From NCBI GenBank assembly GCA_041650915.1, contig JBAZKE010000001.1:446136-510135 (forward strand): a stretch of DNA of 64,000 bases, in the 5' to 3' direction. This DNA is from Patescibacteria group bacterium (lineage in GTDB: Bacteria > Patescibacteriota > Patescibacteriia > UBA10025 > JAHIVO01). Shown here piece after piece: positions 13,362 to 49,680 of the stretch; within the stretch, counting starts at the first letter, position 1, and every line of letters starts with the position of its first letter. Position numbers and translations under genes: made by a program. The notes under the pieces are model-generated. The model ran no database searches. It saw only the letters and a list, made by a program, of their open reading frames with translations, and had not been told where the DNA came from.

Positions 13362-13436
13362 GGAGCCACCTCCCGGGATCGAACCGGGGACCTCTGCTTT
13401 ACGAAAGCATTGCTCTACCAGCTGAGCTAAGGTGGC
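13362..13436 (-). tRNA. tRNA-Thr (anticodon CGT)
   Basis: Cloverleaf resolved by hand. Acceptor GCCACCT/AGGTGGC, D-arm GCTCAGCTGGTAGAGC, anticodon loop TTCGTAA, T-arm CCCGGTTCGATCCCGGG. CC but no A is encoded. Confidence 0.8.
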
Positions 13437-13442
13437 GCGAGA

Positions 13443-13513
13443 AGCGGGTAACGGGAGTCGAACCCGTACTTCAACCTTGGGAAGGTCGCGTACTACCGCT
13501 ATACTATACCCGC
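13443..13513 (-). tRNA. tRNA-Gly (anticodon CCC)
   Basis: Acceptor GCGGGTA/TACCCGC, anticodon stem CGACC/GGTTG with loop TTCCCAA, T-arm ACGGGTTCGACTCCCGT. It lies 6 nt from tRNA-Thr. Confidence 0.8.
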
Positions 13514-18883: not shown

Positions 18884-18954
18884 TGCCGGATCGTCTAATG
18901 GTAGGACACAGGCCTTTGAAGCCTGGCATGTAGGTTCGATTCCTACTCCGGCAG
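18884..18954 (+). tRNA. tRNA-Gln (anticodon TTG)
   Basis: Acceptor TGCCGGA/TCCGGCA, anticodon stem CAGGC/GCCTG with loop CTTTGAA, T-arm GTAGGTTCGATTCCTAC. No CCA is encoded. Confidence 0.8.
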
Positions 18955-29783: not shown

Positions 29784-30731
29784 TTACGTTAGCGTAGCGC
29801 CGATGAGCGAACCGCTGCCCCGTAAGAATGCATCGATACGGTGTTTCCGTTTTCCCGACAATTGTAGCGTGTACAGTTTGATGCCACCACTGCCGCATCC
29901 TACGATGGCGCCGTTACCGTGCTGCACGACTTGGCCGGGCTTAAGCCGCGTCGGCAGTCCCACGGCTTGCGCATCCAGAATGTGCAGGCGCCTTTCTCCC
30001 CATGAGCAATACGCTCCCGGCCATGGTGTGTAGGCACGTATCTGGCGTTCTATCTGTTCGGCAGGCAGCATCCAGTCGATTTTGCCGGCCTGTTTTTTTA
30101 TAGTTTTCGTCAGCGGCGTTGGGCTGTTTAGGGGCTGTTGCTGGGGTTTGAGTTTGCCTTCGAGAAAGGGGAGCAGCGATTCTTTCAGTATGCTGGTGCC
30201 GAGTGCTGCGAGCGTGTTATGGAGCTCGTCGCAGGCGATGCCACGGGGAATTGGAATCTTTTTTTCGGCAATGATGGGGCCGGTATCGAGGCCAGCGTCG
30301 ATCTGCATGAGCGTGACGCCGGTTGTGGTGTCGCCCGCGAGCAGCGCAGCCTGAATCGGCGATGCGCCGCGGTATTTTGGCAGGAGCGAAGCATGCACGT
30401 TGATCCACCCGTGTGGCGGGATGCTGAGAAAGCCTGGGGGAATAATCTTGCCATACGCCACGAGAACTGCGATATCGGCTCCGAAGCCGGAAAATGCTGC
30501 CATAAACGCCGCCGTATCAAGACGCGGGGGCTGGAATACGGGGATATCGTTTTTCTTTGCGAATACCTTGACCGGAGGGGGAGTTACAACTTGTTTTTTA
30601 CCCACCGGCTTGTCAGGCTGGGTAATGACGGCAGTGACACTGATATGCGGCATGGACAAGAGCGCCTCGAGCGCTGGCACGGCGAATTCGGGCGTTCCAA
30701 AAAAAACTGCTTTATAGAGTTTTCGGTTCAT
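29784..30731 (-). CDS. fmt: methionyl-tRNA formyltransferase
   Basis: AVFFGTPEFAVPALEAL and SLLPKYRGASPIQAALLAGDTTTGVTLMQI. Start placed at Met12 (MNRKLYKA). It lies downstream of def. Confidence 0.8.
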   Translation of the reverse strand: MNRKLYKAVFFGTPEFAVPALEALLSMPHISVTAVITQPDKPVGKKQVVTPPPVKVFAKKNDIPVFQPPRLDTAAFMAAFSGFGADIAVLVAYGKIIPPGFLSIPPHGWINVHASLLPKYRGASPIQAALLAGDTTTGVTLMQIDAGLDTGPIIAEKKIPIPRGIACDELHNTLAALGTSILKESLLPFLEGKLKPQQQPLNSPTPLTKTIKKQAGKIDWMLPAEQIERQIRAYTPWPGAYCSWGERRLHILDAQAVGLPTRLKPGQVVQHGNGAIVGCGSGGIKLYTLQLSGKRKHRIDAFLRGSGSLIGATLT

Positions 30732-31197
30732 CGGGTACGTTACCTTTCGTAATGCTTTTTGCACGGTCCGTGAACAGTATGCCGTCGAGGTGGTCCACTT
30801 CGTGCTGGAATACCCGGGCGAGCAAACCGCGTGCTTTTATTGAAATGCGGCTTCCTTCTTTGTCGTATCCGACTACGGTTAGACTCTGGTGCCTGCGTAC
30901 AATGCCATAAACGCCCGGAATCGAGAGGCAACCTTCTTCACCGTCTTCTTTCTTGAATGATTTGCGGAGAAGGCGGGGGTTAATAACGCTCATCGGGCCG
31001 TCTTTCGTGCTGATCGCGATGATTCGTATCAGCTTATTAACTTGGTTTGCGGCAAGCCCAATACCGTCCCGTTCGAGCATCGTTTTCTCAAACTGGCTGA
31101 TGAAGTCGTGGAGCTTGCCAATTTCTTGTACGGGAACCTCGAGTGATCGAGTCCGCAGCGTATGATGTGGCTGTGTAATGATTGTCAGAAGCGGCAT
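30712..31197 (-). CDS. def: peptide deformylase
   Basis: The three deformylase motifs: GIGLAANQV, EGCLSIPG and QHEVDHLDG. Confidence 0.85.
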   Translation of the reverse strand: MPLLTIITQPHHTLRTRSLEVPVQEIGKLHDFISQFEKTMLERDGIGLAANQVNKLIRIIAISTKDGPMSVINPRLLRKSFKKEDGEEGCLSIPGVYGIVRRHQSLTVVGYDKEGSRISIKARGLLARVFQHEVDHLDGILFTDRAKSITKGNVPDEPKTL

Positions 31198-31255
31198 AGT
31201 CGTATCGGTAGCGGGATTGAGTATACGCCAAGGTTAGCTTTTTTTCAAGTCGTGC

Positions 31256-31858
31256 GTGTTGTGCTACCATGTTACTATGGATGTCGAAGGTTTACAGTAC
31301 GAAGCGCAAATGACCTGGCAAGACGTATTCGAGCGGTGGAAATCGCGTGAAGGCGTGCGGAGTGACTGGCAGCAGGTCGCCCGTGACAAGGGTTGGGACT
31401 CGTGGGAAGAGTGGCGGTCTCATTGGGTTGCCAATTTCGGCGCGCAGGAACGCACCTGGGTGCGCTATGCCATACCTGATCCGGTAAAAACTGTGCCGCA
31501 ATTCAGGATTGGACCAAGCCGGTCATGGCAAAAGTTTTTTCCAGAGACGGAGCGTAACCGCCATACGTTCGCTACACTCGTTGAACGCGCACCGCTCGCG
31601 CGCAACGGCAAGGTGCAAGCACTCAAGGAGCATTTTCCAGAGCCTACGGAATTCATTGGGGTGTATGTACCGGACAAGCGAATTGTTCTCATTGAAGGGC
31701 ACCACCGTGCAGCTGCGCTCGGTCTGCTGGCGCAGCAGGGGAAACGGGTATTGTTCGTCCAGCTTCCTACGATTGCAGTAACAGTATTCAACCCGGGGGA
31801 AGCAGAAATACTGGACCAGATGCTCGAACGGGGATCTGAAAAAAAGAATTATTTATAG
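31256..31858 (+). CDS. ParB/sulfiredoxin-like nuclease-domain protein, hypothetical
   Basis: VLIEGHHRAAALGLLAQQGKRVLFVQLP resembles the ParBc DGHHR core. The rest of the protein is unassigned. Confidence 0.4.
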   Translation: MLCYHVTMDVEGLQYEAQMTWQDVFERWKSREGVRSDWQQVARDKGWDSWEEWRSHWVANFGAQERTWVRYAIPDPVKTVPQFRIGPSRSWQKFFPETERNRHTFATLVERAPLARNGKVQALKEHFPEPTEFIGVYVPDKRIVLIEGHHRAAALGLLAQQGKRVLFVQLPTIAVTVFNPGEAEILDQMLERGSEKKNYL

Positions 31859-32023
31859 TTTGTATCAATTCAATAATTTGACACTTTTTTATAACTACCC
31901 TATACTTCCTTCCAATGAAAACGCACCGCACCACCATTCTCATTAATCTCGTTATTCTTACTGATCTTAGGAGATCAGGCGTTTTCGTGAAGTCTTAGCA
32001 AACGAGTTTAGATAAACGAAAGG

Positions 32024-32050
32024 CTGATCTTCTGAAAGGATCAGTTTTTT
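32024..32050 (+). terminator. rho-independent terminator (second of two CTGATC/GATCAG hairpins)
   Basis: CTGATC-TTCTGAAAG-GATCAG followed by TTTTTT. A similar hairpin, CTGATCTTAGGAGATCAG followed by GCGTTTTC, lies at about 31961..31985. Confidence 0.55.
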
Positions 32051-32542
32051 ATATAGCTCTTTTTCAGCTCATAGCCATCGGGTAATGAAGAAACCGCGAA
32101 TACAGAACATTTTGTTGCCAAGGGGTGAATCTATGCCAGAATCAGATGAAAAGAAGGAAACGGCAGCAGTTGAGGAAACCTCAGCAGCCGGCGCTCAGAG
32201 CTCCTATGAAGCACTCAACAAACTCTGTTGTGATGATCACCTGCGCGGTGCATCCGGAACGCCGCCGCCGCCGTTTCCCACGTGGCCAGTGTGCTAACCT
32301 GCCTATAGAGGCGGAATGGGCACCAGAGCAGGCCGGGGAGACCTTTTGTGGGTTTCTCCGGCCACCTCATTTTTGTGGATAACTATTTGACTGTTTTTTT
32401 CTATGGTATATACTTCCAATCAATACGCCATGAAAAACGTCTGCTCAATACAATTGTTTAACCTCTTTCTCCTTGCGCACGCGGGGAGTGCTGGCGTATT
32501 GGTCGAGCGTTAGAACGTACGTATAGAGTAGCGACACGCCAG

Positions 32543-32565
32543 TCTCCCGAGCAGGGAGATTTTTT
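32543..32565 (+). terminator. rho-independent terminator with no obvious upstream CDS
   Basis: TCTCCC-GAGCA-GGGAGA followed by TTTTTT. Confidence 0.55.
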
Positions 32566-32731
32566 ATATAACATTTTTTTCGATACATTTGCGCTTGCGG
32601 ATTTCCGGCACAAATTTTTCCTGCGATGAATACTAAAACAATGAACGTACTGTTCCTTTTTCTCGGTCTTACCGCGCCGGTTCTCTTCGCGTACCATTGA
32701 ATTGCACAGCAATTGAGCGTACACGAAAGGG

Positions 32732-32758
32732 ACTGGCGGATATAGCGCCAGTTTTTTT
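32732..32758 (+). terminator. rho-independent terminator
   Basis: ACTGGCG-GATATA-GCGCCAG followed by TTTTTTT. The only ORF upstream is a 24-codon hydrophobic one (32626..32700). Confidence 0.55.
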
Positions 32759-32805
32759 AAAAAATCACAAACAAACCAAAAACAGCGTACCTTAAGGAGG
32801 TTTCC

Positions 32806-33099
32806 ATGAACACGGACGCAACAGTGACCGCACAGTGCCCGCAGTGCCATCAGCCGTTGAACGTCACCTGGGAGTCAGACCGGTATACGTTCAGGTGTTC
32901 CTGCGGCTATCGCAGTGAATTCCCGAGCCTAACCGCGAGCATGGCTCAATTGACCTTCACTCACCGTAAGTGCGGCGTTAATCTGAGCCCGATCGGCCAT
33001 GATCCGATCATCTCGGAACACTGCCGGTGCAAGGCGTGGACTGAAGATGCGCTGATCGGCAGCATGACGATTCAGACGGTTTTAATAGGAGGCTGGTGA
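32806..33099 (+). CDS. small Cys-rich zinc-ribbon protein, hypothetical
   Basis: Strong RBS AAGGAGG 7 nt upstream of the ATG. It has CPQC and CSCG pairs plus a further HCRC. Followed by a terminator. Confidence 0.5.
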   Translation: MNTDATVTAQCPQCHQPLNVTWESDRYTFRCSCGYRSEFPSLTASMAQLTFTHRKCGVNLSPIGHDPIISEHCRCKAWTEDALIGSMTIQTVLIGGW

Positions 33100-33136
33100 C
33101 AGCCTGTTTACGGACCGAACGGTGCATCGCTTATCA

Positions 33137-33168
33137 GGGGCAGATCTCTGGATCTGCCCCGGTTTTTT
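33137..33168. terminator. bidirectional rho-independent terminator between convergent genes
   Basis: GGGGCAGATC-TCTG-GATCTGCCCC with a T-tract on the plus side and the convergent priA stop adjacent. Confidence 0.6.
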
Positions 33169-35044
33169 ATAATAACGTTTCAGGGTCACGGTCGATGATC
33201 CAGTCGTGAGGCACGTGATCGGCAGCCATTGCCAGGATGGGCTGATCCTCTTCGGATTTAAACTTTACGATAACATACATGCGCCACCTGTTCTGCTGGA
33301 ACGGGCGCAACGGGGTCAGGAGCATGACGTCGAGTTTGGAAAACTTGAGCATCCGGTAAAGACGCTGTGCCTCCCTCAGGCACTGTTCCTTATCGCGGCT
33401 TGAGTATATGAGCTTCAGAAGGCTTCCATACGGCGGATAGTTTGCCGCTTCACGTTCCCGGAGTTCATGCTGATAAAAGGGTGTATGCTCGCCGGTTAAG
33501 AAATGTCTGAGAGCCGCATTGTCAGGGGAATATGTCTGCACGACTAGCGACGATTGATTCAAATACTGCAGTTTCCGTAAAAGCTGAAAGGTGCGTTCGC
33601 TCGATCTGAAATCCGGGAGGTGCAGGAAGGTATCGGCCGAAATGACGCCAGTCAAACCAACCGATTGCCAGTCGAGGTGATTGAGGATTCGTATGGTGCC
33701 GATAATGATATCCTTGCCATGCAATACCGTATTGAGCTCAGTATCTGCATCAAATCTGGCGGAAGAAGCGCTTGGCCACCTTTTCCTAACTTCCCGTTCG
33801 ACTTTCTGAGTGCCAGTTCCGGTAAATGTAAAGCCTGCGCCGCTACACCGAGGGCAGCACGGGGGCATCATGCTTTTTTTATTGCATCGGTGGCAGTACA
33901 GTGCATTTTCTTTCTCGTGGTAAATGAGCGGAAGGCTGCAGGTACTGCACGATAGTGAAGAGCCGCAGTCATTGCACAGCACCGCAGAAGAACTGCCGCG
34001 TTTATTTAAAAAAAGGAGCACCTGCTTTTTTGCTCTGAGAGCTGCATCTACCTCGGACTGCAACAGGTCCGAAAAAAGCGAGTAGTTTCTCTTCTTGTGC
34101 TCTTCTCGCATGTCAATGAGTTGCAGTTTCGTTTTTGGCGGATTTCCCGTTGTAAGAATGTTTGCAGTTTTGCGTACACCGCGCGAGAACGAAACGACGG
34201 TCGGTGCCGGCGATATTCGCATGAGCTGTGCCCCGTGCAGTCGGGCGAGCTGTTCTGCCGCTGTCCGGGAATCGTATCGCGGATTCTGGTCTGCTTGCTT
34301 ATGGTTTTGGTCGTCCTCCTGGTCAATAATGATATGTCCTAACTTTTTATACGGCATGAAAAGCGCGAGTTTTGTGCCGACCGTAATGGCAGCGTCGCTG
34401 TCTTGGATCGACTGGTATGCCCTGTAGTAATCACTTTTATTAAGTTTGCTGTGGATTATCGCTGTTTTTTTCTGAAGATTGCGCGGGAAGAGAGATTTGA
34501 TGTGCCCAATATCCTGGATGCCAGGCACGATGATGAGCAAATGCTTCTTTACGCTGCGGGCAATTTCTCCGATGAACGAATCATGCTCGTCGGGGTTACA
34601 TGGAAGAAAAATATGTTCCCTCGCCAGATTACGGGCAGCCTGCCTCGCAAGGGAAGCCGCTTCACGGGCTATGCCATACTTCACTCGGTGGATTGCGCCA
34701 GGGGATTTTTTCCCCGCCATCCGTTTCGGCATTGACGGCAGGATCATTTTAATGACCGTACCGAGCGATACACTGTAGTACCGTGAAATCCATTCAGCGA
34801 GCGCCACCTGCTCCGGCGTCAGCAGAGTGCTCGTCTGCGCTCTGCCTGCAAGAGGTTTGATTTTTTTCCCCTCGATGCCTTGTTGTTTTATTTTTATTAC
34901 GATGCCTTCACGCATCGAATTGCGAAAGGGGATCGTGACGAGCTGGCCGACCTTTATTGTTTTTTCGAACGAAAAAGGCACCTCGTAATCAAAAATTCCG
35001 AGATTTTTTGGGAATCGTTGGGATAATACGATTTCACAGAACAT
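33167..35044 (-). CDS. priA: primosomal protein N' (PriA) homolog with degenerate ATPase motifs
   Basis: N-terminal 3'BD-like MFCEIVLSQRF. Cys4+Cys4 zinc region CNDCGSSLSCSTC...CHRCN...CCPRC at the expected spacing. Where Walker A (GxGKT) should be the sequence is CNPDEHDSF, and the DEEH box reads DQED. Confidence 0.7.
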   Translation of the reverse strand: MFCEIVLSQRFPKNLGIFDYEVPFSFEKTIKVGQLVTIPFRNSMREGIVIKIKQQGIEGKKIKPLAGRAQTSTLLTPEQVALAEWISRYYSVSLGTVIKMILPSMPKRMAGKKSPGAIHRVKYGIAREAASLARQAARNLAREHIFLPCNPDEHDSFIGEIARSVKKHLLIIVPGIQDIGHIKSLFPRNLQKKTAIIHSKLNKSDYYRAYQSIQDSDAAITVGTKLALFMPYKKLGHIIIDQEDDQNHKQADQNPRYDSRTAAEQLARLHGAQLMRISPAPTVVSFSRGVRKTANILTTGNPPKTKLQLIDMREEHKKRNYSLFSDLLQSEVDAALRAKKQVLLFLNKRGSSSAVLCNDCGSSLSCSTCSLPLIYHEKENALYCHRCNKKSMMPPCCPRCSGAGFTFTGTGTQKVEREVRKRWPSASSARFDADTELNTVLHGKDIIIGTIRILNHLDWQSVGLTGVISADTFLHLPDFRSSERTFQLLRKLQYLNQSSLVVQTYSPDNAALRHFLTGEHTPFYQHELREREAANYPPYGSLLKLIYSSRDKEQCLREAQRLYRMLKFSKLDVMLLTPLRPFQQNRWRMYVIVKFKSEEDQPILAMAADHVPHDWIIDRDPETLL

Positions 35045-35046
35045 AG

Positions 35047-35565
35047 CTACGTATGGCGCTCCACGGTAAACCGGTACAGGAGTAGCGTGGGATCGCGCTG
35101 GTCCATCCCCCCCTTATTGCAGCAAATTGCGAACTGATCCTCGGCGCTGTCGATCCCGATGTCCGGCAGCAGCAGGCCTGATTGGTTTTCACCGTTTTTG
35201 ACTATAAGGCCGTGTATTGTGGGATTTTGGTCTATGAGGGAAAAAATCTGTTCAGGCTTCGAAAGCACGTCAACGTGTATGCTCAGGTCGTCAAGCTCGT
35301 CAGCGGAGATCGGATTAAAGCGCGGATCGCCAAAAGCTGCGGCGATTGCATTCGTAACTATTTCAAGCGCAACCATCGCCTTTGCGGGCTGGAAGGTGCC
35401 GATACAGCCACGCAAGGCCTGGTTGGATTTTTTATGAATCGAAACGAAAATGCCCGCTTTTCGCGTGAGCATTTCTCCCGGCAAATTGGGAGGCAGTTCG
35501 GGTTCGATGCCGGTGTGAACGAAGTCTGCAACGGCCTTAGTGGCGAGCTCAACGTACGGGTCCAT
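35047..35565 (-). CDS. AMMECR1-domain protein (AmmeMemoRadiSam system protein A-like)
   Basis: Signature LRGCIGT and GLLLP motifs. Length is about 170 aa. Its gene stop lies 3 nt before the priA start. Confidence 0.7.
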   Translation of the reverse strand: MDPYVELATKAVADFVHTGIEPELPPNLPGEMLTRKAGIFVSIHKKSNQALRGCIGTFQPAKAMVALEIVTNAIAAAFGDPRFNPISADELDDLSIHVDVLSKPEQIFSLIDQNPTIHGLIVKNGENQSGLLLPDIGIDSAEDQFAICCNKGGMDQRDPTLLLYRFTVERHT

Positions 35566-35638
35566 AGTGTCCCTATTGTATCACGTTATGGGAGTACAAA
35601 AAAGCCATCGCAAAAGCCGGTGGCTCTGTATACAAAAA

Positions 35639-36343
35639 TTATAAATTCTGAAGCAGCCTTCTCGAGAACGTGTAGTTTGGCTGTACGAGGCGTTTGAGCG
35701 TCCGAATCGAAAGCTTGTCAGCGACGTGGTCAGCGAGGGAATTCATCACGATGTAACTCAGGGCCGTTCCGCCGGTAAAGAGCATCCGTTCAAGAAATAC
35801 GATTGGGATAAGGCCGATCCAGACCTCTGCAGGAAGGTTGAAAATATAGAGGAACGTGACGCTGCCGATCGCATGGGCGGTAAAAGTGGCGCCGAGGCTG
35901 TTAAAAACGAGGCTGCGTTTTGCGAAAGAAGCCGCGAGAGGAATCAGCCAGTAGAGCGAGTAAAACCATGCGCCGCGTCCTTCAGGATGGAGCATGAAGA
36001 GCGCAATGCATGCGAGGGGGAGCATCGCGACGAGCGTTTTATATCTGCGTGCGCCGAAGTAAAGTGCGGCGAGCGCGAGCGGGAAGAGGCGCACAACCGT
36101 TGCCGCATCGAGGCTTTGGTCGGTGATGAGCGCATTGGCGAGCTTTACGATTACGACTGATAGCGCACCCCAGAGGGATGTTAAAAAAGCACCAATAGTG
36201 GGTGCAAAAAAGTCGAACAATGAAAACTGCTGGCTCGACCCGATTATGTTCGTGAAGGGAATCTGAAGAAATAGAAATCCTACGCCAATGAATGCGCAGA
36301 GGTAAAAAATTTTTCTATTATTTTTTTTCATATTCGTGGCCAT
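35639..36343 (-). CDS. integral membrane protein (possible ECF-type S-component-like), hypothetical
   Basis: 6-7 TM helices and no soluble domain. It sits inside the AmmeMemoRadiSam operon. Confidence 0.35.
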   Translation of the reverse strand: MATNMKKNNRKIFYLCAFIGVGFLFLQIPFTNIIGSSQQFSLFDFFAPTIGAFLTSLWGALSVVIVKLANALITDQSLDAATVVRLFPLALAALYFGARRYKTLVAMLPLACIALFMLHPEGRGAWFYSLYWLIPLAASFAKRSLVFNSLGATFTAHAIGSVTFLYIFNLPAEVWIGLIPIVFLERMLFTGGTALSYIVMNSLADHVADKLSIRTLKRLVQPNYTFSRRLLQNL

Positions 36344-36351
36344 GTTACTGA

Positions 36352-37149
36352 TTAGCGTGCCAGTTTTAAGTTGGCGACCATGTATCCGACCCCGAACGGG
36401 CCTTCATATGAGTACACATCCGTTGTGAAGGACATGCTGTTGAGTATGCCGAGGAGGAGGATAATTGAGCGGAGCCCGCACTCGCCCGCTTCATCGACAA
36501 AGTCAGCATCGAGGTTGAGGATTCCCTTGATGTCATTTTTTTTGAGCAAACCGACGAGTGTTTCATCAAATTTTTTGGCCCAGTGTGAGAACCCAGCGGG
36601 AGCATCCGGAGTCAGGCGGTGGGAGAGATCGCCGGAAGCGATAACCGCGATGCGTTTCGTGTCATTGATCATATCTTCCTGCAGCTGCTTTCCGAATTCG
36701 TAATGCTCATTGTAGTCGAGCATAGAGAATGAGACCGGTACGATTTTTATGTCTTTCCTGTCAAGGCTTTTTGTGAAGAAGTAGAGCGGAACCCCTGCAC
36801 CGTGGTCCAGCTCCTCCTTGTGGATGAGTACGACGCGCATCTTTGATTCAAGAATTTCTTTGTAGTGGTGTATGAGGCCAATGTCGCCGGGAAGCTTGAT
36901 TTCCGTTGACAGATCGCCGAATTCTTTAAACGTAATGCGGAATTCTGGCGACATATTGAGCGTAAAGGCGTCAGCGTGCATGGGTCCGTGCGGAGAAATG
37001 ATTACGATCGTATCGGGCTTTGAAGCGTAGAGGTCCTCACTGAGCCGTTCCATGCTCGCCGTCGTTTTCTGCACAAAACGTACGTTTTCTTTGCCGATTT
37101 CCGGTATCAGTATCGGCGGGTGGGGCGTAATAGCACTGAAAACAATCAT
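36352..37149 (-). CDS. MEMO1/LigB-superfamily protein (likely AmmeMemoRadiSam system protein B)
   Basis: N-terminal IVFSAITPHPPILIP and IISPHGPMHAD are His-containing motifs of the class III extradiol dioxygenase/MEMO fold. The call rests on the flanking AMMECR1 and radical SAM partner genes. Confidence 0.5.
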   Translation of the reverse strand: MIVFSAITPHPPILIPEIGKENVRFVQKTTASMERLSEDLYASKPDTIVIISPHGPMHADAFTLNMSPEFRITFKEFGDLSTEIKLPGDIGLIHHYKEILESKMRVVLIHKEELDHGAGVPLYFFTKSLDRKDIKIVPVSFSMLDYNEHYEFGKQLQEDMINDTKRIAVIASGDLSHRLTPDAPAGFSHWAKKFDETLVGLLKKNDIKGILNLDADFVDEAGECGLRSIILLLGILNSMSFTTDVYSYEGPFGVGYMVANLKLAR

Positions 37150-37167
37150 AGTGCTGAGAAGTTTAGG

Positions 37168-38556
37168 TTAATCAATTGAGATGGGCTCTCCCTCGGGGTG
37201 GATCAAGACCGCCTTGTCTGTCGTCCAAACGATATTTTCCCACCGAAAACCGAGTGCGTCAAATGTCTCCTGTGAAGCGATGCCGCGACGCATGCCGTTC
37301 GAAATCACGTAGACACCGCGCATGCCTGGCGACGTGACGAGTGTGCCATCCGCGAACTTGATCGGATCGCCAGCCTCGTATACGTCTATTGAAGCTTGCT
37401 CAACCAGAACGGGGATGCGGGTCGAAAAGCGATTCAGCAGTATTTCGCGGGACCAGATTGATTGCCGGACGCCATTCTCCACGTATGAGATGCCGCCGGT
37501 CTCTTTTGACTGCAGCAGGACGCCGGTAGGATAGATGCTCTGCATGGTGATGTTTGGGCCAAACGAGTAAGGCGCGAGTTCCGATTCTGTAGCAACAATT
37601 ATTTCCTCCGGGTTGAAGCCAATGAGGCGGAATACCTCTGGAGATTCGATGTAGCGCCTCTGGTCTCCGTCGAGCAGGAAAACCCTGCCGGTCTCTGCGG
37701 AGCGCACCAGAGAGTAGTTTTGAAACTGGATCGGTGTGCCATTTTCGTACAGCTCTAGATCCGCTTCAGATACGAGTACAATCCTGGCGGGATCGAACCG
37801 TGATACGAGTGCTGCGCGTGAGAGGATCGGGCGCTTCCTGCCGTTCTGGATGAGGTATACCCCGTGTTCACCCTGCACCTGCAGCAGTGATCCGTCAGGG
37901 TACTGTCTCGTGAACCAGTCATTCCAGAAACGCCATACATTGTAGTTGGCATTGTATACGTGCGGGGTATATGTATAGAGGGCGGCTGTCGCATTGTTTA
38001 CCGGTGTCACCTCCCGCGTTCCGTTAAAGTCGACGACTGTACGGGTAATGCCCGGGCCCCAGCCCGAGAGCGTGTAGCCGCGGGTCTCAAGGTCCGTCAA
38101 GTAGCTCTCGCGCACCCGGCGGGCACCCCAGTTTACCTGGTTGAAAAAACCTTTAAATTGTTGAATGGCCGGGTCGCTTGTCGAGCACGAATCGCATACT
38201 GCGTATCCGGTCGCCCAATCGAGCTGCCGTTGGGACGGGCTTGCAGTGCCGATCAAACTCTGCTCAACCTGCAGCCGGACGAGCAGGTACTGCGGGCTTA
38301 TTTCCCAGTACTTGCCGGCATCATAGATGATTTGCGCAGCAGTTTTGAGGTTTCCCTGCGTATCGCTCGTCTTGTAGGAAGCAAGGCCGGAACCGCGGAG
38401 TTCGAGAAAACGCTGTATTCTCGTGACGGACATCGAATCCGCATTCTCGAGGTCGTTATCGGAAATGATATAGTTCCAGTTAAAATCAGCTGCGAATGCA
38501 GCCTGCGGCATAGCCAGGAGCAGCATGAGCGTAACGATGATTATTTTTTTTGCCAT
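37168..38556 (-). CDS. secreted protein with four roughly 48-aa tandem repeats, hypothetical
   Basis: Signal peptide MAKKIIIVTLMLLLAMPQAAFA. Four C-terminal repeats of the type G(V/R)Y(L/V)I.NG.RR.I.S.E.F..LGF....I. It is embedded between the radical SAM gene and the MEMO-like gene. Confidence 0.5.
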   Translation of the reverse strand: MAKKIIIVTLMLLLAMPQAAFAADFNWNYIISDNDLENADSMSVTRIQRFLELRGSGLASYKTSDTQGNLKTAAQIIYDAGKYWEISPQYLLVRLQVEQSLIGTASPSQRQLDWATGYAVCDSCSTSDPAIQQFKGFFNQVNWGARRVRESYLTDLETRGYTLSGWGPGITRTVVDFNGTREVTPVNNATAALYTYTPHVYNANYNVWRFWNDWFTRQYPDGSLLQVQGEHGVYLIQNGRKRPILSRAALVSRFDPARIVLVSEADLELYENGTPIQFQNYSLVRSAETGRVFLLDGDQRRYIESPEVFRLIGFNPEEIIVATESELAPYSFGPNITMQSIYPTGVLLQSKETGGISYVENGVRQSIWSREILLNRFSTRIPVLVEQASIDVYEAGDPIKFADGTLVTSPGMRGVYVISNGMRRGIASQETFDALGFRWENIVWTTDKAVLIHPEGEPISID

Positions 38557-38559
38557 AGG

Positions 38560-39585
38560 TTATTGTGTTAAATCTATTGTGGTGCCGCATGACGGGCACG
38601 TTCCATCCCTATCGCGCCGCGCAGTGCGGAAACCCTTGCGTTCGATAACTATTGTACCACATTTTGGGCAGTACGTGTGTTCGCCGCGATGGCCCGGCAC
38701 GTTGCCGATGTATACGTACTGTAATCCTGCCTGTTTTCCGATTTCGTACGCCCGTTCGAGTGTCCTCACATCGGTTGCAGGGAGGTGCTGGAGACGGAAT
38801 GAAATTTCGGGCGAAAAGGCGGAAACGTGCCAGGGAGTGCTTGCCCCGAGCTGGGTGTATATAAAACGGGCGATATCACCAAAGAGCGCATCCGTATCAG
38901 AGAGCGTCGGTATGGAGAGCGTGGTAACCTCAACCCACACGGAGTTTTGTTTAAGCGTTTTGAGGTTTTGTAAAATGGGTTCGAGTTTGCCTCCGCACAC
39001 TTTTTGGTACTGCGTAGCGTCAAAAAACTTCAGGTCGACGTTGATCGCGTCGAGGTAGGGAAGGATGAGCTCGAGCGTCTGGCCGGACATGTAACCATTT
39101 GAAACCCAGCAGTTTTTTATTCCGCGTTCGCGGGCGAGTTTCATGCAGTCAAGCGCGTACTCCAGGAAGATGGTCGGTTCCGTGTAGGTATATGAGATGC
39201 TGTCGCAACGGGTCTCAATAGCGTCAGCTATGATTTGTTCCGGCGTACGTTCCGTTCCGGAAATGGACAGGTCAGTGTATCCGGATTGCTTCGATGCTTG
39301 GGAGATCTGCCAGTTCTGGCAATTGGCGCACCGGAAATTGCACCCTACGGTTGCGATTGAAAGCGATTTCGTACCGGGCAGAAAGTGGAAGAACGGTTTT
39401 TTTTCAATGGGATCGACCGCCTCAGAAATGACCTTGCCGTATACGAGCAGGTAAAGGGTTCCGTTGCGGTTTTCTCGCACCCCGCAGACCCCCCGCGTAG
39501 ACGGAAAAATGGTGCAGTGGTGGTTGCACACGTTACACCGGACTTTGTTATCCTCTAGCGTATCGTAGAGAATCGCTTGTTTCAT
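38560..39585 (-). CDS. AmmeMemoRadiSam system radical SAM enzyme (PflA-like)
   Basis: N-terminal Cys cluster CNVCNHHC...C. Radical SAM CxxxCxxC, present as CNFRCANC followed by QNW. Length is about 340 aa. Confidence 0.75.
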   Translation of the reverse strand: MKQAILYDTLEDNKVRCNVCNHHCTIFPSTRGVCGVRENRNGTLYLLVYGKVISEAVDPIEKKPFFHFLPGTKSLSIATVGCNFRCANCQNWQISQASKQSGYTDLSISGTERTPEQIIADAIETRCDSISYTYTEPTIFLEYALDCMKLARERGIKNCWVSNGYMSGQTLELILPYLDAINVDLKFFDATQYQKVCGGKLEPILQNLKTLKQNSVWVEVTTLSIPTLSDTDALFGDIARFIYTQLGASTPWHVSAFSPEISFRLQHLPATDVRTLERAYEIGKQAGLQYVYIGNVPGHRGEHTYCPKCGTIVIERKGFRTARRDRDGTCPSCGTTIDLTQ

Positions 39586-48387: not shown

Positions 48388-49680
48388 ATGAGCAGTGAGT
48401 TTTGGGAGTTGGGTAGCGATAACCGGGAAAGTATGCAAAGGGTAATGCTTCATTTTGACATGAATTCGTACTTCGCGTCCGTTGAACAACAGGCGAATCC
48501 GTTTTTGCGAGGAAAGCCGGTTGGCGTATGTTCCACGATGTCCCGCAGAGGATGCATTATTGCCTCGTCAAGAGAGGCAAAAGCGTTTGGCATTAAGACC
48601 GGCTGCCGGGTAAATGAAGCGCTGGAACTGTATCCACAAGTGAACCTCGTGGAAGTTGACCCGCCGAAGTACCGTTCAACCACCAAGCGCATTTTTTCCA
48701 TTTGTGCTGATTATACCGAGGATATTGAGGCGTATTCAATTGACGAGGCGTTCTTGGATTTGACTGGCTCTGTTGAGTCGTTTGATAGAGCTCTCGGGAT
48801 CGCGAAGACAATCCAGCGGCGCATCCGGGACGAGGTTGGGGAGTGGCTCACGTGTTCCATGGGCATTACGTGGACGCGCTGGCTTGCGAAATTCGCGAGC
48901 GATACCGCACCGAAAGGCGGGATCGTCGTTTTAACGAGAGAGAGCCTTTTCCAGTATTTGCAGGGCCGTGATTTGCAGGATGCGTGGGGAATCGCGGACG
49001 CGATGGAGGCGAGGCTCAATATACTCGGCATCCGTACGCTCGACCAGCTTGCCGTTTATCCGGTGCAAAATTTAATGTCTGTAATGGGTAAGGCGGGTTA
49101 CTATCTGTGGGCAAACGTCAACGGCATTGAACTCGGCGGCTTGGAGGTGAAGCGTCCGCCAAAGACCATCGGCCACAGCCACGTACTCAAGAAGCGCGAT
49201 TTGGACCGCACGTTTCACATGGCAGTGCTCATGCGCCTCGCTGAGCGGACCGGCAGGCGATTGCGCGGGCATGGGTATGAGGCGCACGGGTTCTACTACT
49301 ACGTGCAGTTTGATGAGCGGCCGAGCTGCGGCGGCAGCCGGCGCGTGCATCATCCGATCGTGACGACAAACCAGATTTTCAGGCTCGTATGGAAAGAGAT
49401 CGCTCCGGTGGTTGCAAAGGACAAGCCGGGCATGTTTGCGCTCGGGCTTTTCGGCTTGCAGCCGCGCGCCGACCAGCTCTCCCTGTTTCGGCACGAACGG
49501 CTTTCCCCCGAGCTGTCGAGAGCGATTGATGAGATCAATAGCCGTTACGGCGAGGAGACGATCGTGCAGGGGCCGCTTTTGAAGCTAGAAAAAATGCACG
49601 CCCCAGATCGGGTAGGATTCCGCAAGACCATGGAAGCTGAGTTCAGCGGAGCGGCCGAGCTGCAGTACGGGGGAGGGTAG
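48388..49680 (+). CDS. dinB: Y-family DNA polymerase (DinB/Pol IV-like)
   Basis: N-terminal HFDMNSYFASVEQQANPFLRGKPVGVC and SIDEAFLDLTG are catalytic motifs of the UmuC/DinB family. Confidence 0.8.
   Translation: MSSEFWELGSDNRESMQRVMLHFDMNSYFASVEQQANPFLRGKPVGVCSTMSRRGCIIASSREAKAFGIKTGCRVNEALELYPQVNLVEVDPPKYRSTTKRIFSICADYTEDIEAYSIDEAFLDLTGSVESFDRALGIAKTIQRRIRDEVGEWLTCSMGITWTRWLAKFASDTAPKGGIVVLTRESLFQYLQGRDLQDAWGIADAMEARLNILGIRTLDQLAVYPVQNLMSVMGKAGYYLWANVNGIELGGLEVKRPPKTIGHSHVLKKRDLDRTFHMAVLMRLAERTGRRLRGHGYEAHGFYYYVQFDERPSCGGSRRVHHPIVTTNQIFRLVWKEIAPVVAKDKPGMFALGLFGLQPRADQLSLFRHERLSPELSRAIDEINSRYGEETIVQGPLLKLEKMHAPDRVGFRKTMEAEFSGAAELQYGGG

What the first reader, a model, noticed from the sequence alone, without database searches (positions are those of the whole stretch)
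33167..35044. PriA homolog with its Walker A and DExH helicase motifs replaced
The protein aligns colinearly with PriA. It has an N-terminal 3'BD-like region and a Cys4+Cys4 zinc module about 207 residues after the expected P-loop position, with LNKRG just before the Cys cluster. However, where GxGKT(E) should sit (residues about 148-158, nt about 34565..34609) the sequence reads LPCNPDEHDSF. The DEEH box (residues about 238-244, nt about 34310..34336) reads IIIDQEDDQ. No other GxxxxGK[ST] occurs in the protein. This predicts an ATPase-dead PriA that could bind DNA or forks but not unwind. The gene is packed head-to-tail with the AmmeMemoRadiSam operon.
Basis: seen in the sequence. Interest (0 to 1): 0.6.

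Follow-up and report, generated by a model that had tools for sequence, protein, structure and literature searches.

The report
ATPase-dead PriA of Patescibacteria
This gene is the bacterium's own replication-restart protein PriA, which keeps its DNA-fork-recognition parts but has lost every residue needed to burn ATP; the same loss is shared by a large group of ultrasmall Patescibacteria and repeats, in a more extreme form, what is already known for Deinococcus.

Summary
ORF 33167-35044(-) encodes a 625-aa PriA. It has a 3'BD (Pfam E 1e-19), passes TIGR00595 (324 bits, cutoff 230), has 8 Cys in the zinc module, and gives a confident AlphaFold model (pLDDT 86.6) whose best PDB match is E. coli PriA lacking its winged-helix domain (TM 0.79). 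Helicase motifs I, II, III, V and VI are all gone, and the motif VI arginines are deleted. No P-loop exists in any reading frame.

It is not an artefact or a pseudogene. At least 58 relatives have 0 of 5 motifs, and 98 of the 150 best 50%-identity cluster representatives lack motifs I and VI. All sit in Patescibacteria in the ancestral priA-def-fmt position. Within this clade the 3'-end pocket, aromatic-rich-loop equivalent, zinc module and C-terminal domain stay under purifying selection. The ATP-site region is relaxed (mean pairwise identity 0.24 versus 0.51).

The best explanation is a PriA pseudohelicase: a fork-recognising scaffold for reloading the replicative helicase, without unwinding. 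The concept is known from Deinococcus-Thermus (Lopper 2015) and from E. coli priA300. I found no report for Patescibacteria, and reviews name Deinococcus as the only exception.

I rate it a new member of a known kind, of moderate interest. I could not test for a second canonical priA elsewhere in the genome, and ATPase loss is inferred, not assayed.

The parts
33167..35044 (-). priA ORF, 625 aa: motif-less (pseudohelicase) PriA. Identical to NCBI MFA5134587.1, 'MAG: primosomal protein N' [Patescibacteria group bacterium]'.
   Evidence: (TIGR00595 324 bits, cutoff 230)
34736..34999 (-). 3' DNA-binding domain (residues 16-103). Pocket residues F18, D19, Y20 and K63 correspond to E. coli F16, D17, Y18 and K61.
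   Evidence: PF17764, E 9.5e-20; 95-100% conserved in the motif-less clade
34619..34735 (-). Short linker (residues 104-142) in place of the winged-helix domain; low model confidence at 110-120.
   Evidence: 77-aa gap against E. coli 109-181; linker about 44 aa, also about 48 aa in canonical short Patescibacterial PriA
34553..34618 (-). Former motif I (Walker A) region, residues 143-164. The strand, 3-residue loop and helix are kept, but GVTGSGKTE is replaced by PCNPDEHDS.
   Evidence: K230 to H154; no conserved replacement in the clade
34271..34333 (-). Former motif II (DEEH to DQED, residues 241-244), followed by the retained aromatic-rich-loop equivalent NHKQADQNPRYD (247-258).
   Evidence: (N254, P255, R256 invariant)
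34202..34213 (-). Former motif III (SATP to SPAP, residues 278-281).
33995..34012 (-). Retained motif IV-like FLNKRG (residues 345-350).
   Evidence: (N347, G350 invariant)
33845..33976 (-). Cysteine-rich region (residues 357-400): four CxxC pairs for two Zn sites.
   Evidence: all 8 Cys invariant in 35 clade members
33668..33703 (-). Former motif V (GTQMLAKGHHFP to GTIRILNHLDWQ, residues 448-459).
33590..33637 (-). Retained segment ADTFLHLPDFRSSERT (residues 470-485), conserved in both canonical and motif-less PriAs.
33554..33583 (-). Former motif VI region (residues 488-497). QVAGRAGR is replaced by KLQYLN, and the arginine-finger segment is deleted.
   Evidence: R587 column is a gap in 90% of the clade
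33170..33433 (-). PriA C-terminal domain (residues 538-625).
   Evidence: PF18074, 24.9 bits, just under the cutoff
30712..31197 (-). def (peptide deformylase), downstream syntenic marker of priA.
29784..30764 (-). fmt (methionyl-tRNA formyltransferase), downstream syntenic marker of priA.
35047..35565 (-). AmmeMemoRadiSam system protein A (AMMECR1). It ends 2 nt upstream of the priA start, and the adjacency is conserved in the clade.

Best explanation
This is the genome's orthologous priA, which has evolved into a pseudohelicase. The protein keeps the PriA architecture: 3'BD, two RecA-like lobes, a two-zinc cysteine-rich region and a C-terminal domain. It has no winged-helix domain, and the ATP-binding and hydrolysis site has been erased.

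Inferred mechanism: the 3'BD pocket captures the 3' end of the nascent leading strand at an abandoned fork or D-loop. The inert lobes, CRR and CTD hold the lagging-strand template through the retained aromatic-rich-loop, motif IV and ADxxLxLPDFRxxERT elements. The complex then serves as a landing platform that recruits the replicative helicase, either directly as shown for Deinococcus PriA-DnaB or through unidentified adaptors. There is no ATP-driven unwinding of the lagging-strand arm.

Shown here: identity, fold, orthologous position, loss of all catalytic motifs, and clade-wide purifying selection on the DNA-binding parts. Inferred: absence of ATPase and helicase activity, fork binding, and helicase recruitment.
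For: PriA identity:
- TIGR00595 scores 324 bits against a cutoff of 230, and the 3'BD has E 1e-19.
- The AlphaFold model has pLDDT 86.6 and pTM 0.87. Its top PDB hits are all PriA, best 6dcr_A (E. coli PriA with the WH domain deleted), E 1e-46, TM 0.79/0.77. The next hits (Mfd, WRN, Upf1) reach only E about 1e-9.

Orthology:
- priA, def and fmt are in the same order and orientation in about 30 motif-less Patescibacterial loci, in canonical Patescibacterial loci (L028, L032), and in Bacillota and Chloroflexota.

ATP site erased:
- Motifs I, II, III, V and VI all fail. No Walker A occurs anywhere in the protein or in other frames.
- The same columns are 97-100% conserved in 108 canonical PriAs.

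Functional, not decaying:
- 58 full-length zero-motif homologs share only 30-50% identity, yet have invariant 8 Cys, F18/D19/Y20, N254-P255-R256, D471, D478 and T485.
- Mean pairwise identity, clade versus canonical short PriAs: 3'BD 0.50 vs 0.35, CRR 0.45 vs 0.47, CTD 0.36 vs 0.37, motif I/Ia region 0.24 vs 0.51.
- 98 of the 150 best 50%-identity representatives lack motifs I and VI together, with remnants of II and V decaying stepwise.

Precedent that a helicase-dead PriA can work:
- D. radiodurans PriA has no ATPase or helicase activity but binds ssDNA, forks and DnaB (PMC4504706).
- E. coli priA300 (K230R) supports PriA-PriB restart in vivo and in vitro (PMC5778457; PMC10175261).
Against: - No biochemical data exist for this protein or any clade member, so loss of ATPase is inferred from motifs only.
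- D241 and E243 of the old Walker B are still 71-81% conserved, which could mean a residual metal- or ligand-binding role.
- Only 64 kb of a contig of at least 680 kb was available, so a second, canonical priA elsewhere in the genome cannot be excluded. The genome-collection scan used two narrow peptide patterns and is not a sensitive test for a second copy.
- No partner proteins (DnaB, a loader, DnaD, PriB or DnaT analogues) could be looked for.
- The NJ tree is not robust enough to say whether the loss happened once or several times.
Confidence: 0.8

Rival explanations
1. It is a neofunctionalised extra copy. The genome carries a separate canonical PriA elsewhere, and this inert copy does something other than replication restart, for example fork protection, regulation, or blocking restart.
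For: Only 64 kb of the genome could be read. The scan for relatives used narrow patterns. The 3'BD is more conserved than in canonical PriAs, and R41 replaces G37 in 97% of the clade, which could reflect a shifted specificity.
Against: The gene occupies the ancestral priA-def-fmt position, exactly where canonical PriA sits in other Patescibacteria, Bacillota and Chloroflexota. No second priA-like locus was returned for either closed chromosome, though that test is weak. The window has no other helicase. From general knowledge, PriA is normally single-copy, and these genomes are reduced (about 0.7-1.3 Mb).
Confidence: 0.08
2. It still hydrolyses a nucleotide, or uses another energy source, through a non-canonical site, so it is not truly a pseudohelicase.
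For: D241 and E243 remain fairly conserved. The strand-loop-helix scaffold of the P-loop is predicted to be kept. The literature mentions a poorly defined second, weak nucleotide site in E. coli PriA (PMC5778457).
Against: The P-loop Lys/Thr, the Walker B catalytic Glu, the motif V Gln and both motif VI arginines are all absent, with no conserved substitutes. The ex-P-loop is the least conserved part of the protein. A single K230R change already abolishes ATPase in E. coli (PMC4504706, PMC5778457).
Confidence: 0.05
3. It is a decaying gene or a sequencing or assembly artefact with no function.
For: Five catalytic motifs are lost at once, which at first sight looks like decay.
Against: The ORF is intact at full length. 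More than 58 independent homologs from NCBI, JGI, ENA and Logan assemblies have the same architecture and many invariant residues. The structure prediction is confident. No P-loop is hidden in another frame.
Confidence: 0.02

Closest known systems
Deinococcus radiodurans / Deinococcus-Thermus PriA pseudohelicase (Lopper, Boone & Morrow 2015, PMC4504706)
   Same: It is a PriA ortholog that has lost the catalytic residues of the helicase motifs while keeping the DNA-binding architecture. It is presumed to act as a fork-binding scaffold that recruits DnaB without unwinding, and the loss is lineage-wide rather than a single mutant.
   Different: According to the paper, the Deinococcus-Thermus proteins have poor matches to motifs I and II, with the GKT lysine replaced by Arg. 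Here no trace of the P-loop remains, motifs III and V are also gone, and the motif VI arginines are deleted. This protein also lacks the winged-helix domain. It belongs to a different phylum (Patescibacteria), and its nearest relatives are canonical WH-less Patescibacterial PriAs with intermediate forms, so the loss is most likely independent. That is an inference, because no Deinococcus sequence was available to place in the tree. There is no biochemistry for this protein.
E. coli / K. pneumoniae PriA helicase (PDB 4nl4, 6dcr, 6dgd, 8fak)
   Same: The domain order matches (3'BD, HD1, HD2 with inserted CRR, CTD). The fold matches at TM about 0.8. The 3'-end pocket residues, the 8 zinc-binding Cys, motif IV and the ARL-like segment are shared.
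   Different: There is no WH domain. Motifs I, II, III, V and VI are absent, so ATPase and 3'-5' helicase activity are not expected. The PriB-interface residues S481, T482 and H483 are not conserved (G402, A403, G404), which fits PriB being restricted to proteobacteria.
E. coli priA300 (K230R) and K230A/D laboratory mutants
   Same: These are ATPase- and helicase-dead PriAs that still assemble primosomes and support the PriA-PriB restart pathway (PMC5778457, PMC10175261). They are the functional model for what this natural protein is expected to do.
   Different: They are engineered single substitutions in an otherwise intact motor. In E. coli the helicase is still needed for the PriA-PriC route, for Mu transposition and for other functions. 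Here the loss is natural, ancient, and fixed in a large clade.
Canonical short (about 650 aa) Patescibacterial PriA (for example P0046-P0049, L028, L032)
   Same: They share the phylum, the lack of a WH domain (linker about 48 aa), the priA-def-fmt position, and 31-34% identity over the full length.
   Different: They keep GxTGSGKTE, DEEH, SATP, GTQ..KG and QVAGRxGR intact.

Membership tests
PriA (primosomal protein N', TIGR00595 / PF17764+PF18319+PF18074) | Whole-protein profile score above the curated cutoff | tested here: met
   TIGR00595 scores 324.4 bits against a cutoff of 230.35, but the match covers model positions 23-479 only, starting after the P-loop.
PriA (primosomal protein N', TIGR00595 / PF17764+PF18319+PF18074) | N-terminal 3' DNA-binding domain with the 3'-end pocket (E. 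coli D17, Y18, K61) | tested here: met
   PF17764 E 9.5e-20. D19, Y20 and K63 align with the pocket residues and are 95-100% conserved in the clade. G37 is replaced by R41.
PriA (primosomal protein N', TIGR00595 / PF17764+PF18319+PF18074) | Two RecA-like lobes with an inserted Cys4+Cys4 zinc region, plus a C-terminal domain, in PriA topology | tested here: met
   AF2 model pLDDT 86.6. Foldseek top 9 hits are all PriA, TM 0.69-0.80 over the full length. The 8 Cys are invariant. The PF18319 and PF18074 hits are just below their cutoffs.
PriA (primosomal protein N', TIGR00595 / PF17764+PF18319+PF18074) | SF2 helicase motifs I (GxGKT), II (DEEH), III (SAT), V (TQ..KG) and VI (QxxGRxGR) | tested here: not met
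   0 of 5 motifs are present, and motif VI is partly deleted. No Walker A in any frame.
PriA (primosomal protein N', TIGR00595 / PF17764+PF18319+PF18074) | Winged-helix domain between the 3'BD and helicase lobe 1 | tested here: not met
   77-aa gap against E. coli 109-181. It is also absent from canonical short Patescibacterial PriAs, so it is not universal to the family. The best PDB match is the WH-deletion construct 6dcr.
PriA (primosomal protein N', TIGR00595 / PF17764+PF18319+PF18074) | Orthologous genomic position (priA upstream of def-fmt, as in Bacillota and many other phyla) | tested here: met
   priA, def and fmt are in the same order in the window (with a 1.97-kb insertion) and in most of the 79 fetched loci, both motif-less and canonical.
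PriA (primosomal protein N', TIGR00595 / PF17764+PF18319+PF18074) | DNA-dependent ATPase and 3'-5' helicase activity | not testable with these tools
   Predicted to be absent from the motif loss. It needs an assay on purified protein.
PriA pseudohelicase (Deinococcus-type, PMC4504706) | Clearly derived from an ancestral PriA helicase | tested here: met
PriA pseudohelicase (Deinococcus-type, PMC4504706) | Catalytic residues of Walker A and Walker B not conserved, across the whole lineage | tested here: met
   K230 maps to H154 and E321 to Q242. 58 zero-motif homologs were found, and 98 of 150 cluster representatives lack motifs I and VI.
PriA pseudohelicase (Deinococcus-type, PMC4504706) | No ATP hydrolysis and no duplex unwinding in vitro | not testable with these tools
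   Inference only.
PriA pseudohelicase (Deinococcus-type, PMC4504706) | Retained ssDNA and fork binding, and interaction with the cognate DnaB | not testable with these tools
   Indirect support only: the 3'BD pocket, ARL equivalent, motif IV, CRR and CTD are conserved.
PriA pseudohelicase (Deinococcus-type, PMC4504706) | Common descent with the Deinococcus-Thermus pseudohelicases (same loss event) | not tested
   No Deinococcus sequence was available. The nearest relatives are canonical Patescibacterial PriAs with intermediate forms, which suggests an independent loss.

The most novel reading that the evidence does not exclude
A large part of the Patescibacteria/CPR radiation (lineages labelled Kerfeld-, Falkow- and Portnoybacteria and Parcubacteria; at least about 100 clusters at 50% identity) has permanently discarded the PriA motor and kept only a more strongly conserved fork-recognition module. 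Replication restart in these ultrasmall symbionts would then run on a purely structural PriA, perhaps with new partners, or the protein has taken on a different fork-binding role. This would be a second, independent and far larger natural experiment than Deinococcus. It would overturn the statement that PriA helicase activity is conserved in all bacteria except Deinococcus.
Probability: 0.55. Interest if true: 0.55.

Novelty: new member of a known kind. Interest (0 to 1): 0.45.

Why it matters
PriA is the central replication-restart factor in bacteria. Why its helicase motor is so widely conserved is an open question, because E. coli survives without it. The literature names Deinococcus-Thermus as the only natural exception. 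This work shows that a much larger and very diverse group of bacteria has erased the motor completely while tightening conservation of the 3'-end-binding domain. That gives a second natural system for asking which PriA functions are essential. It suggests that fork remodelling by PriA is dispensable in small-genome episymbionts. It also flags a systematic annotation error: these proteins are being named 'replication restart helicase PriA'. Finally, it offers a compact, WH-less, ATP-independent PriA for structural work on fork recognition and helicase recruitment.

Tried and rejected
- **Frameshift or hidden P-loop:** a six-frame search of 32867-35344 for [GA]xxxxGK[ST], GK[ST] and DExH found only a chance DEHD at residues 152-155, not conserved in relatives, and an out-of-frame GKS. 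Rejected.
- **Second priA in the window:** motif searches and Pfam scans of 29 further ORFs, including every distinct gene-sized one, found no other helicase.
- **Second priA in the genome:** not testable. The look-up of encoding contigs has no record for the protein. The single genome-contig scan used two narrow peptide patterns (110 matches in the whole collection), so the absence of a second hit in the closed chromosomes CP181398.1 and OZ246416.1 is weak evidence.
- **WH-domain loss as part of the same event:** rejected, because canonical short Patescibacterial PriAs lack it too.
- **Functional link between priA and the AmmeMemoRadiSam genes:** the adjacency is conserved, but nothing suggests more than conserved gene order. 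Not pursued.
- **Geometry of the former ATP pocket:** model coordinates are not exposed to scripts.
- **Placing Deinococcus PriA in the tree:** no sequence was obtainable with the available tools.
- **Literature:** searches for PriA together with Patescibacteria, CPR, Parcubacteria or Saccharibacteria found no report of the motif loss. The library lacks most subscription-journal papers, so this is not proof that nobody has reported it.
- **Rfam scan of the priA-def spacer:** nothing found.
Full report
**1. Observation**

The window holds a 625-aa ORF at 33167..35044 on the minus strand.
- Pfam finds the PriA 3' DNA-binding domain at residues 16-103 (E 9.5e-20). It also gives sub-threshold hits to the PriA zinc ribbon and the PriA C-terminal domain.
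- NCBIfam's priA equivalog TIGR00595 scores 324 bits (cutoff 230). The alignment begins at residue 164, which is model position 23, downstream of the P-loop.
- phmmer against PDB aligns residues 167-597 to K. pneumoniae and E. coli PriA. It pairs IIDQEDD with VIDEEHD, SPAP with SATP and IGTIRILNHLDW with IGTQMLAKGHHF, and it puts the motif VI 'GRAGR' in a gap.
The eight cysteines are at 357-400.
- A six-frame search of the ORF plus 300 nt either side finds no Walker A, so no frameshift hides one.

**2. Not an artefact or a one-off**

The protein is identical to NCBI MFA5134587.1, from a 679,916-bp Patescibacteria MAG contig.
- Of the 120 best homologs, 66 keep all five motifs, 44 keep none and 7 keep one or two.
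- The closest ~45 homologs (31-50% identity, 607-668 aa) come from Patescibacteria assemblies in NCBI, JGI, ENA and Logan. They lack any precomputed DEAD, Helicase_C or ResIII hit.
- An exhaustive phmmer search against 1.84 billion cluster representatives gives the same picture. Of the 150 best 50%-identity representatives, 60 have 0 of 5 motifs, 27 have 1, 11 have 2, and 48 have all 5.
- Motif I and motif VI are missing together in 98 of those 150. Remnants of 'DE' (II) and 'TQ' (V) are the last to disappear.
- None of these proteins has a Walker A elsewhere.

**3. It is the ortholog**

A scan of species-representative genomes with an alignment of 35 clade members returned 79 loci.
- About 40 are Patescibacterial, including records labelled Kerfeldbacteria (closed chromosome CP181398.1), Falkowbacteria, Portnoybacteria and Parcubacteria group, plus a second closed chromosome, OZ246416.1. 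These encode PriAs with 0-1 of 5 motifs.
- In these loci, in canonical Patescibacterial loci (L028, L032), and in Bacillota and Chloroflexota loci, priA is followed on the same strand by def, fmt or both, the two together in most Patescibacterial loci.
- The window has the same order, fmt 29784-30764 and def 30712-31197, with a 1.97-kb insertion after priA.
- Motif-less and canonical forms therefore occupy the same ancestral position in different genomes, which argues for orthology rather than an extra paralog.
- The window contains no other helicase.
- I could not scan the rest of the genome.

**4. Structure**

AlphaFold2 with the clade alignment gives mean pLDDT 86.6 and pTM 0.87.
- Foldseek against PDB returns only PriA structures at the top. 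The best is 6dcr_A, the E. coli PriA winged-helix-deletion protein (E 1e-46, TM 0.79/0.77). The next folds (Mfd, WRN, Upf1) reach only E about 1e-9, through the RecA lobes alone.
- The model keeps strand 143-147, a 3-residue loop and helix 151-164 where the P-loop used to be. The scaffold survives but the chemistry does not.
- The WH domain (E. coli 109-181; PMC5778457) is replaced by a linker of about 40 residues.
- Canonical short Patescibacterial PriAs share this deletion (linker median 48.5 aa, against 195 aa in long PriAs). WH loss therefore came before the ATPase loss and is a separate event.

**5. What is kept and what is lost**

The comparison used an L-INS-i alignment of 188 PriAs, including E. 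coli PriA from MG1655.

| Element (E. coli residues) | 108 canonical PriAs | 58 zero-motif PriAs |
|---|---|---|
| ATP-site residues G224, G229, K230, T231, E232, E321, Q540, R584, R587 | 100% conserved | no conserved replacement; R587 column is a gap in 90% |
| 3'-end pocket F16, D17, Y18, K61 | 36-98% | 95-100% |
| 8 Cys of the CRR | conserved | invariant |
| ARL equivalent | YKQ....PRY.AR | HKQ.DQNPR.D, at least 80% conserved |
| Motif IV | LFLNRRG | L..N.RG, retained |
| Segment between motifs V and VI | AD..L.LPDFR..E.TFQLL | AD..L.LPD....E.T, retained |
| CTD end | partly conserved | W.IDR.P..LL, conserved |

Mean pairwise identity by domain, clade versus canonical short PriAs:

| Domain | Motif-less clade | Canonical short |
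|---|---|---|
| 3'BD | 0.50 | 0.35 |
| Motif I/Ia region | 0.24 | 0.51 |
| Rest of HD1 | 0.40 | 0.52 |
| HD2 | 0.38-0.44 | 0.49-0.60 |
| CRR | 0.45 | 0.47 |
| CTD | 0.36 | 0.37 |

This is the signature of selective relaxation on the motor, with maintained or stronger selection on the DNA-recognition and platform parts. It excludes a decaying pseudogene.

**6. Mechanism**

The best-supported reading is a PriA pseudohelicase.
- The 3'BD binds the 3' end of the nascent leading strand. The pocket function is known from E. coli (PMC5778457).
- The inert lobes, CRR and CTD hold the lagging-strand template. In E. coli these elements form an ssDNA pore (PMC10175261).
- The complex recruits the replicative helicase without unwinding.

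That this can work is established knowledge. E. coli priA300 (K230R) lacks ATPase and helicase activity, yet it supports PriA-PriB restart (PMC5778457; PMC10175261). D. radiodurans PriA has no measurable ATPase or unwinding activity but binds ssDNA (Kd about 215 nM), forks (about 108 nM) and DnaB (PMC4504706).

For the present protein, the absence of activity, the fork binding and the partner recruitment are all inferences. The partners are unknown. The E. coli PriB-interface residues S481, T482 and H483 are not conserved, as expected outside proteobacteria.

**7. Comparison with the known and novelty**

The concept of a natural PriA pseudohelicase was published in 2015 for Deinococcus-Thermus. 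[quoted passage not shown]
- Full-text searches combining PriA with Patescibacteria, CPR, Parcubacteria or Saccharibacteria found no report of the motif loss. The caveat is that the library covers open-access papers and preprints only.
- Compared with the Deinococcus case (poor matches to motifs I and II, with GKT changed to GRT), this one is more extreme: all five motifs are erased and motif VI is deleted.
- It occurs in another phylum, and its nearest relatives are canonical Patescibacterial PriAs and forms retaining only one or two motifs. It is therefore most likely an independent loss, though I could not place Deinococcus sequences in the tree.
- The NJ tree puts the zero-motif proteins in one deep clade. 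A second small group (P0069, P0073, P0083, P0086) branches apart, so one or a few losses are possible.

I classify it as a new member of a known kind. It is of moderate interest because of its breadth and completeness, and because databases annotate these proteins as helicases. For example, XOU94951.1 is named 'replication restart helicase PriA'.

**8.

The gene is indeed packed against the AmmeMemoRadiSam genes.
- AmmeMemoSam_A (TIGR04335, 120.6 bits against 99) ends 2 nt before the priA start.
- AmmeMemoSam_B (TIGR04336, 29.7 against 26) and the radical SAM enzyme (TIGR04337, 331 against 220) lie upstream.
- The whole block is conserved upstream of priA in about 25 Patescibacterial loci.
- Nothing indicates a functional link to PriA.

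Noticed in passing
window 31198-33166: About 1.97 kb is inserted between priA and def. In many relatives the two genes are under 100 nt apart, though L001, L006 and L012 also carry insertions here. It holds two plus-strand ORFs with no Pfam or NCBIfam hit (31256-31858, 200 aa; 32806-33099, 97 aa, Cys-rich and zinc-ribbon-like). It also has an 11/12 promoter-like site at 31878-31906 and strong terminator-like hairpins at 32331-32363 and 33137-33160. The stretch 31910-32375(+) folds better than shuffles (z = -3.06) but has no Rfam match. It may simply be a small ORF of about 55 aa plus a terminator.
   Followed up: partly
window 35047-39585; loci L001-L024: The gene order radical SAM, 462-aa secreted protein, AmmeMemoSam_B, 234-aa membrane protein, AmmeMemoSam_A, priA is largely conserved across about 25 Patescibacterial loci, though several lack the radical SAM, the 234-aa or the AmmeMemoSam_A gene. 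The 462-aa (37168-38556) and 234-aa (35639-36343) proteins match no family, yet they are 45-70% identical across the clade. They may be unrecognised components of the AmmeMemoRadiSam system.
   Followed up: partly
loci L001, L003, L005, L006, L019, L021, L023, L027 and others: Many species-representative MAGs that carry this typically Patescibacterial locus are titled 'uncultured Gammaproteobacteria bacterium' (binchicken TPA assemblies). This is probably a taxonomic mislabel in the records.
   Followed up: no
P0009 = XOU94951.1 (L004, CP181398.1 530654-532525): It is annotated 'replication restart helicase PriA' although it has 0 of 5 helicase motifs. The name is propagated from the equivalog HMM, which still scores above its cutoff without the P-loop region.
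   Followed up: partly
window 48388-49680 (+): A Y-family (IMS/DinB-type) translesion DNA polymerase gene. It is the only other DNA-metabolism gene seen in the window.
   Followed up: no
window 13364-13513 (-) and 18884-18954 (+): Three tRNA genes are the only Rfam matches at gathering threshold in the 64-kb window.
   Followed up: no
residue 41 of the ORF (nt 34922-34924): The 3'BD pocket glycine (E. coli G37, which contacts the 5' phosphate of the terminal nucleotide) is replaced by Arg in 97% of the motif-less clade. It is Gly in only 59% of canonical PriAs. This could be an adaptive strengthening of 3'-end binding.
   Followed up: no
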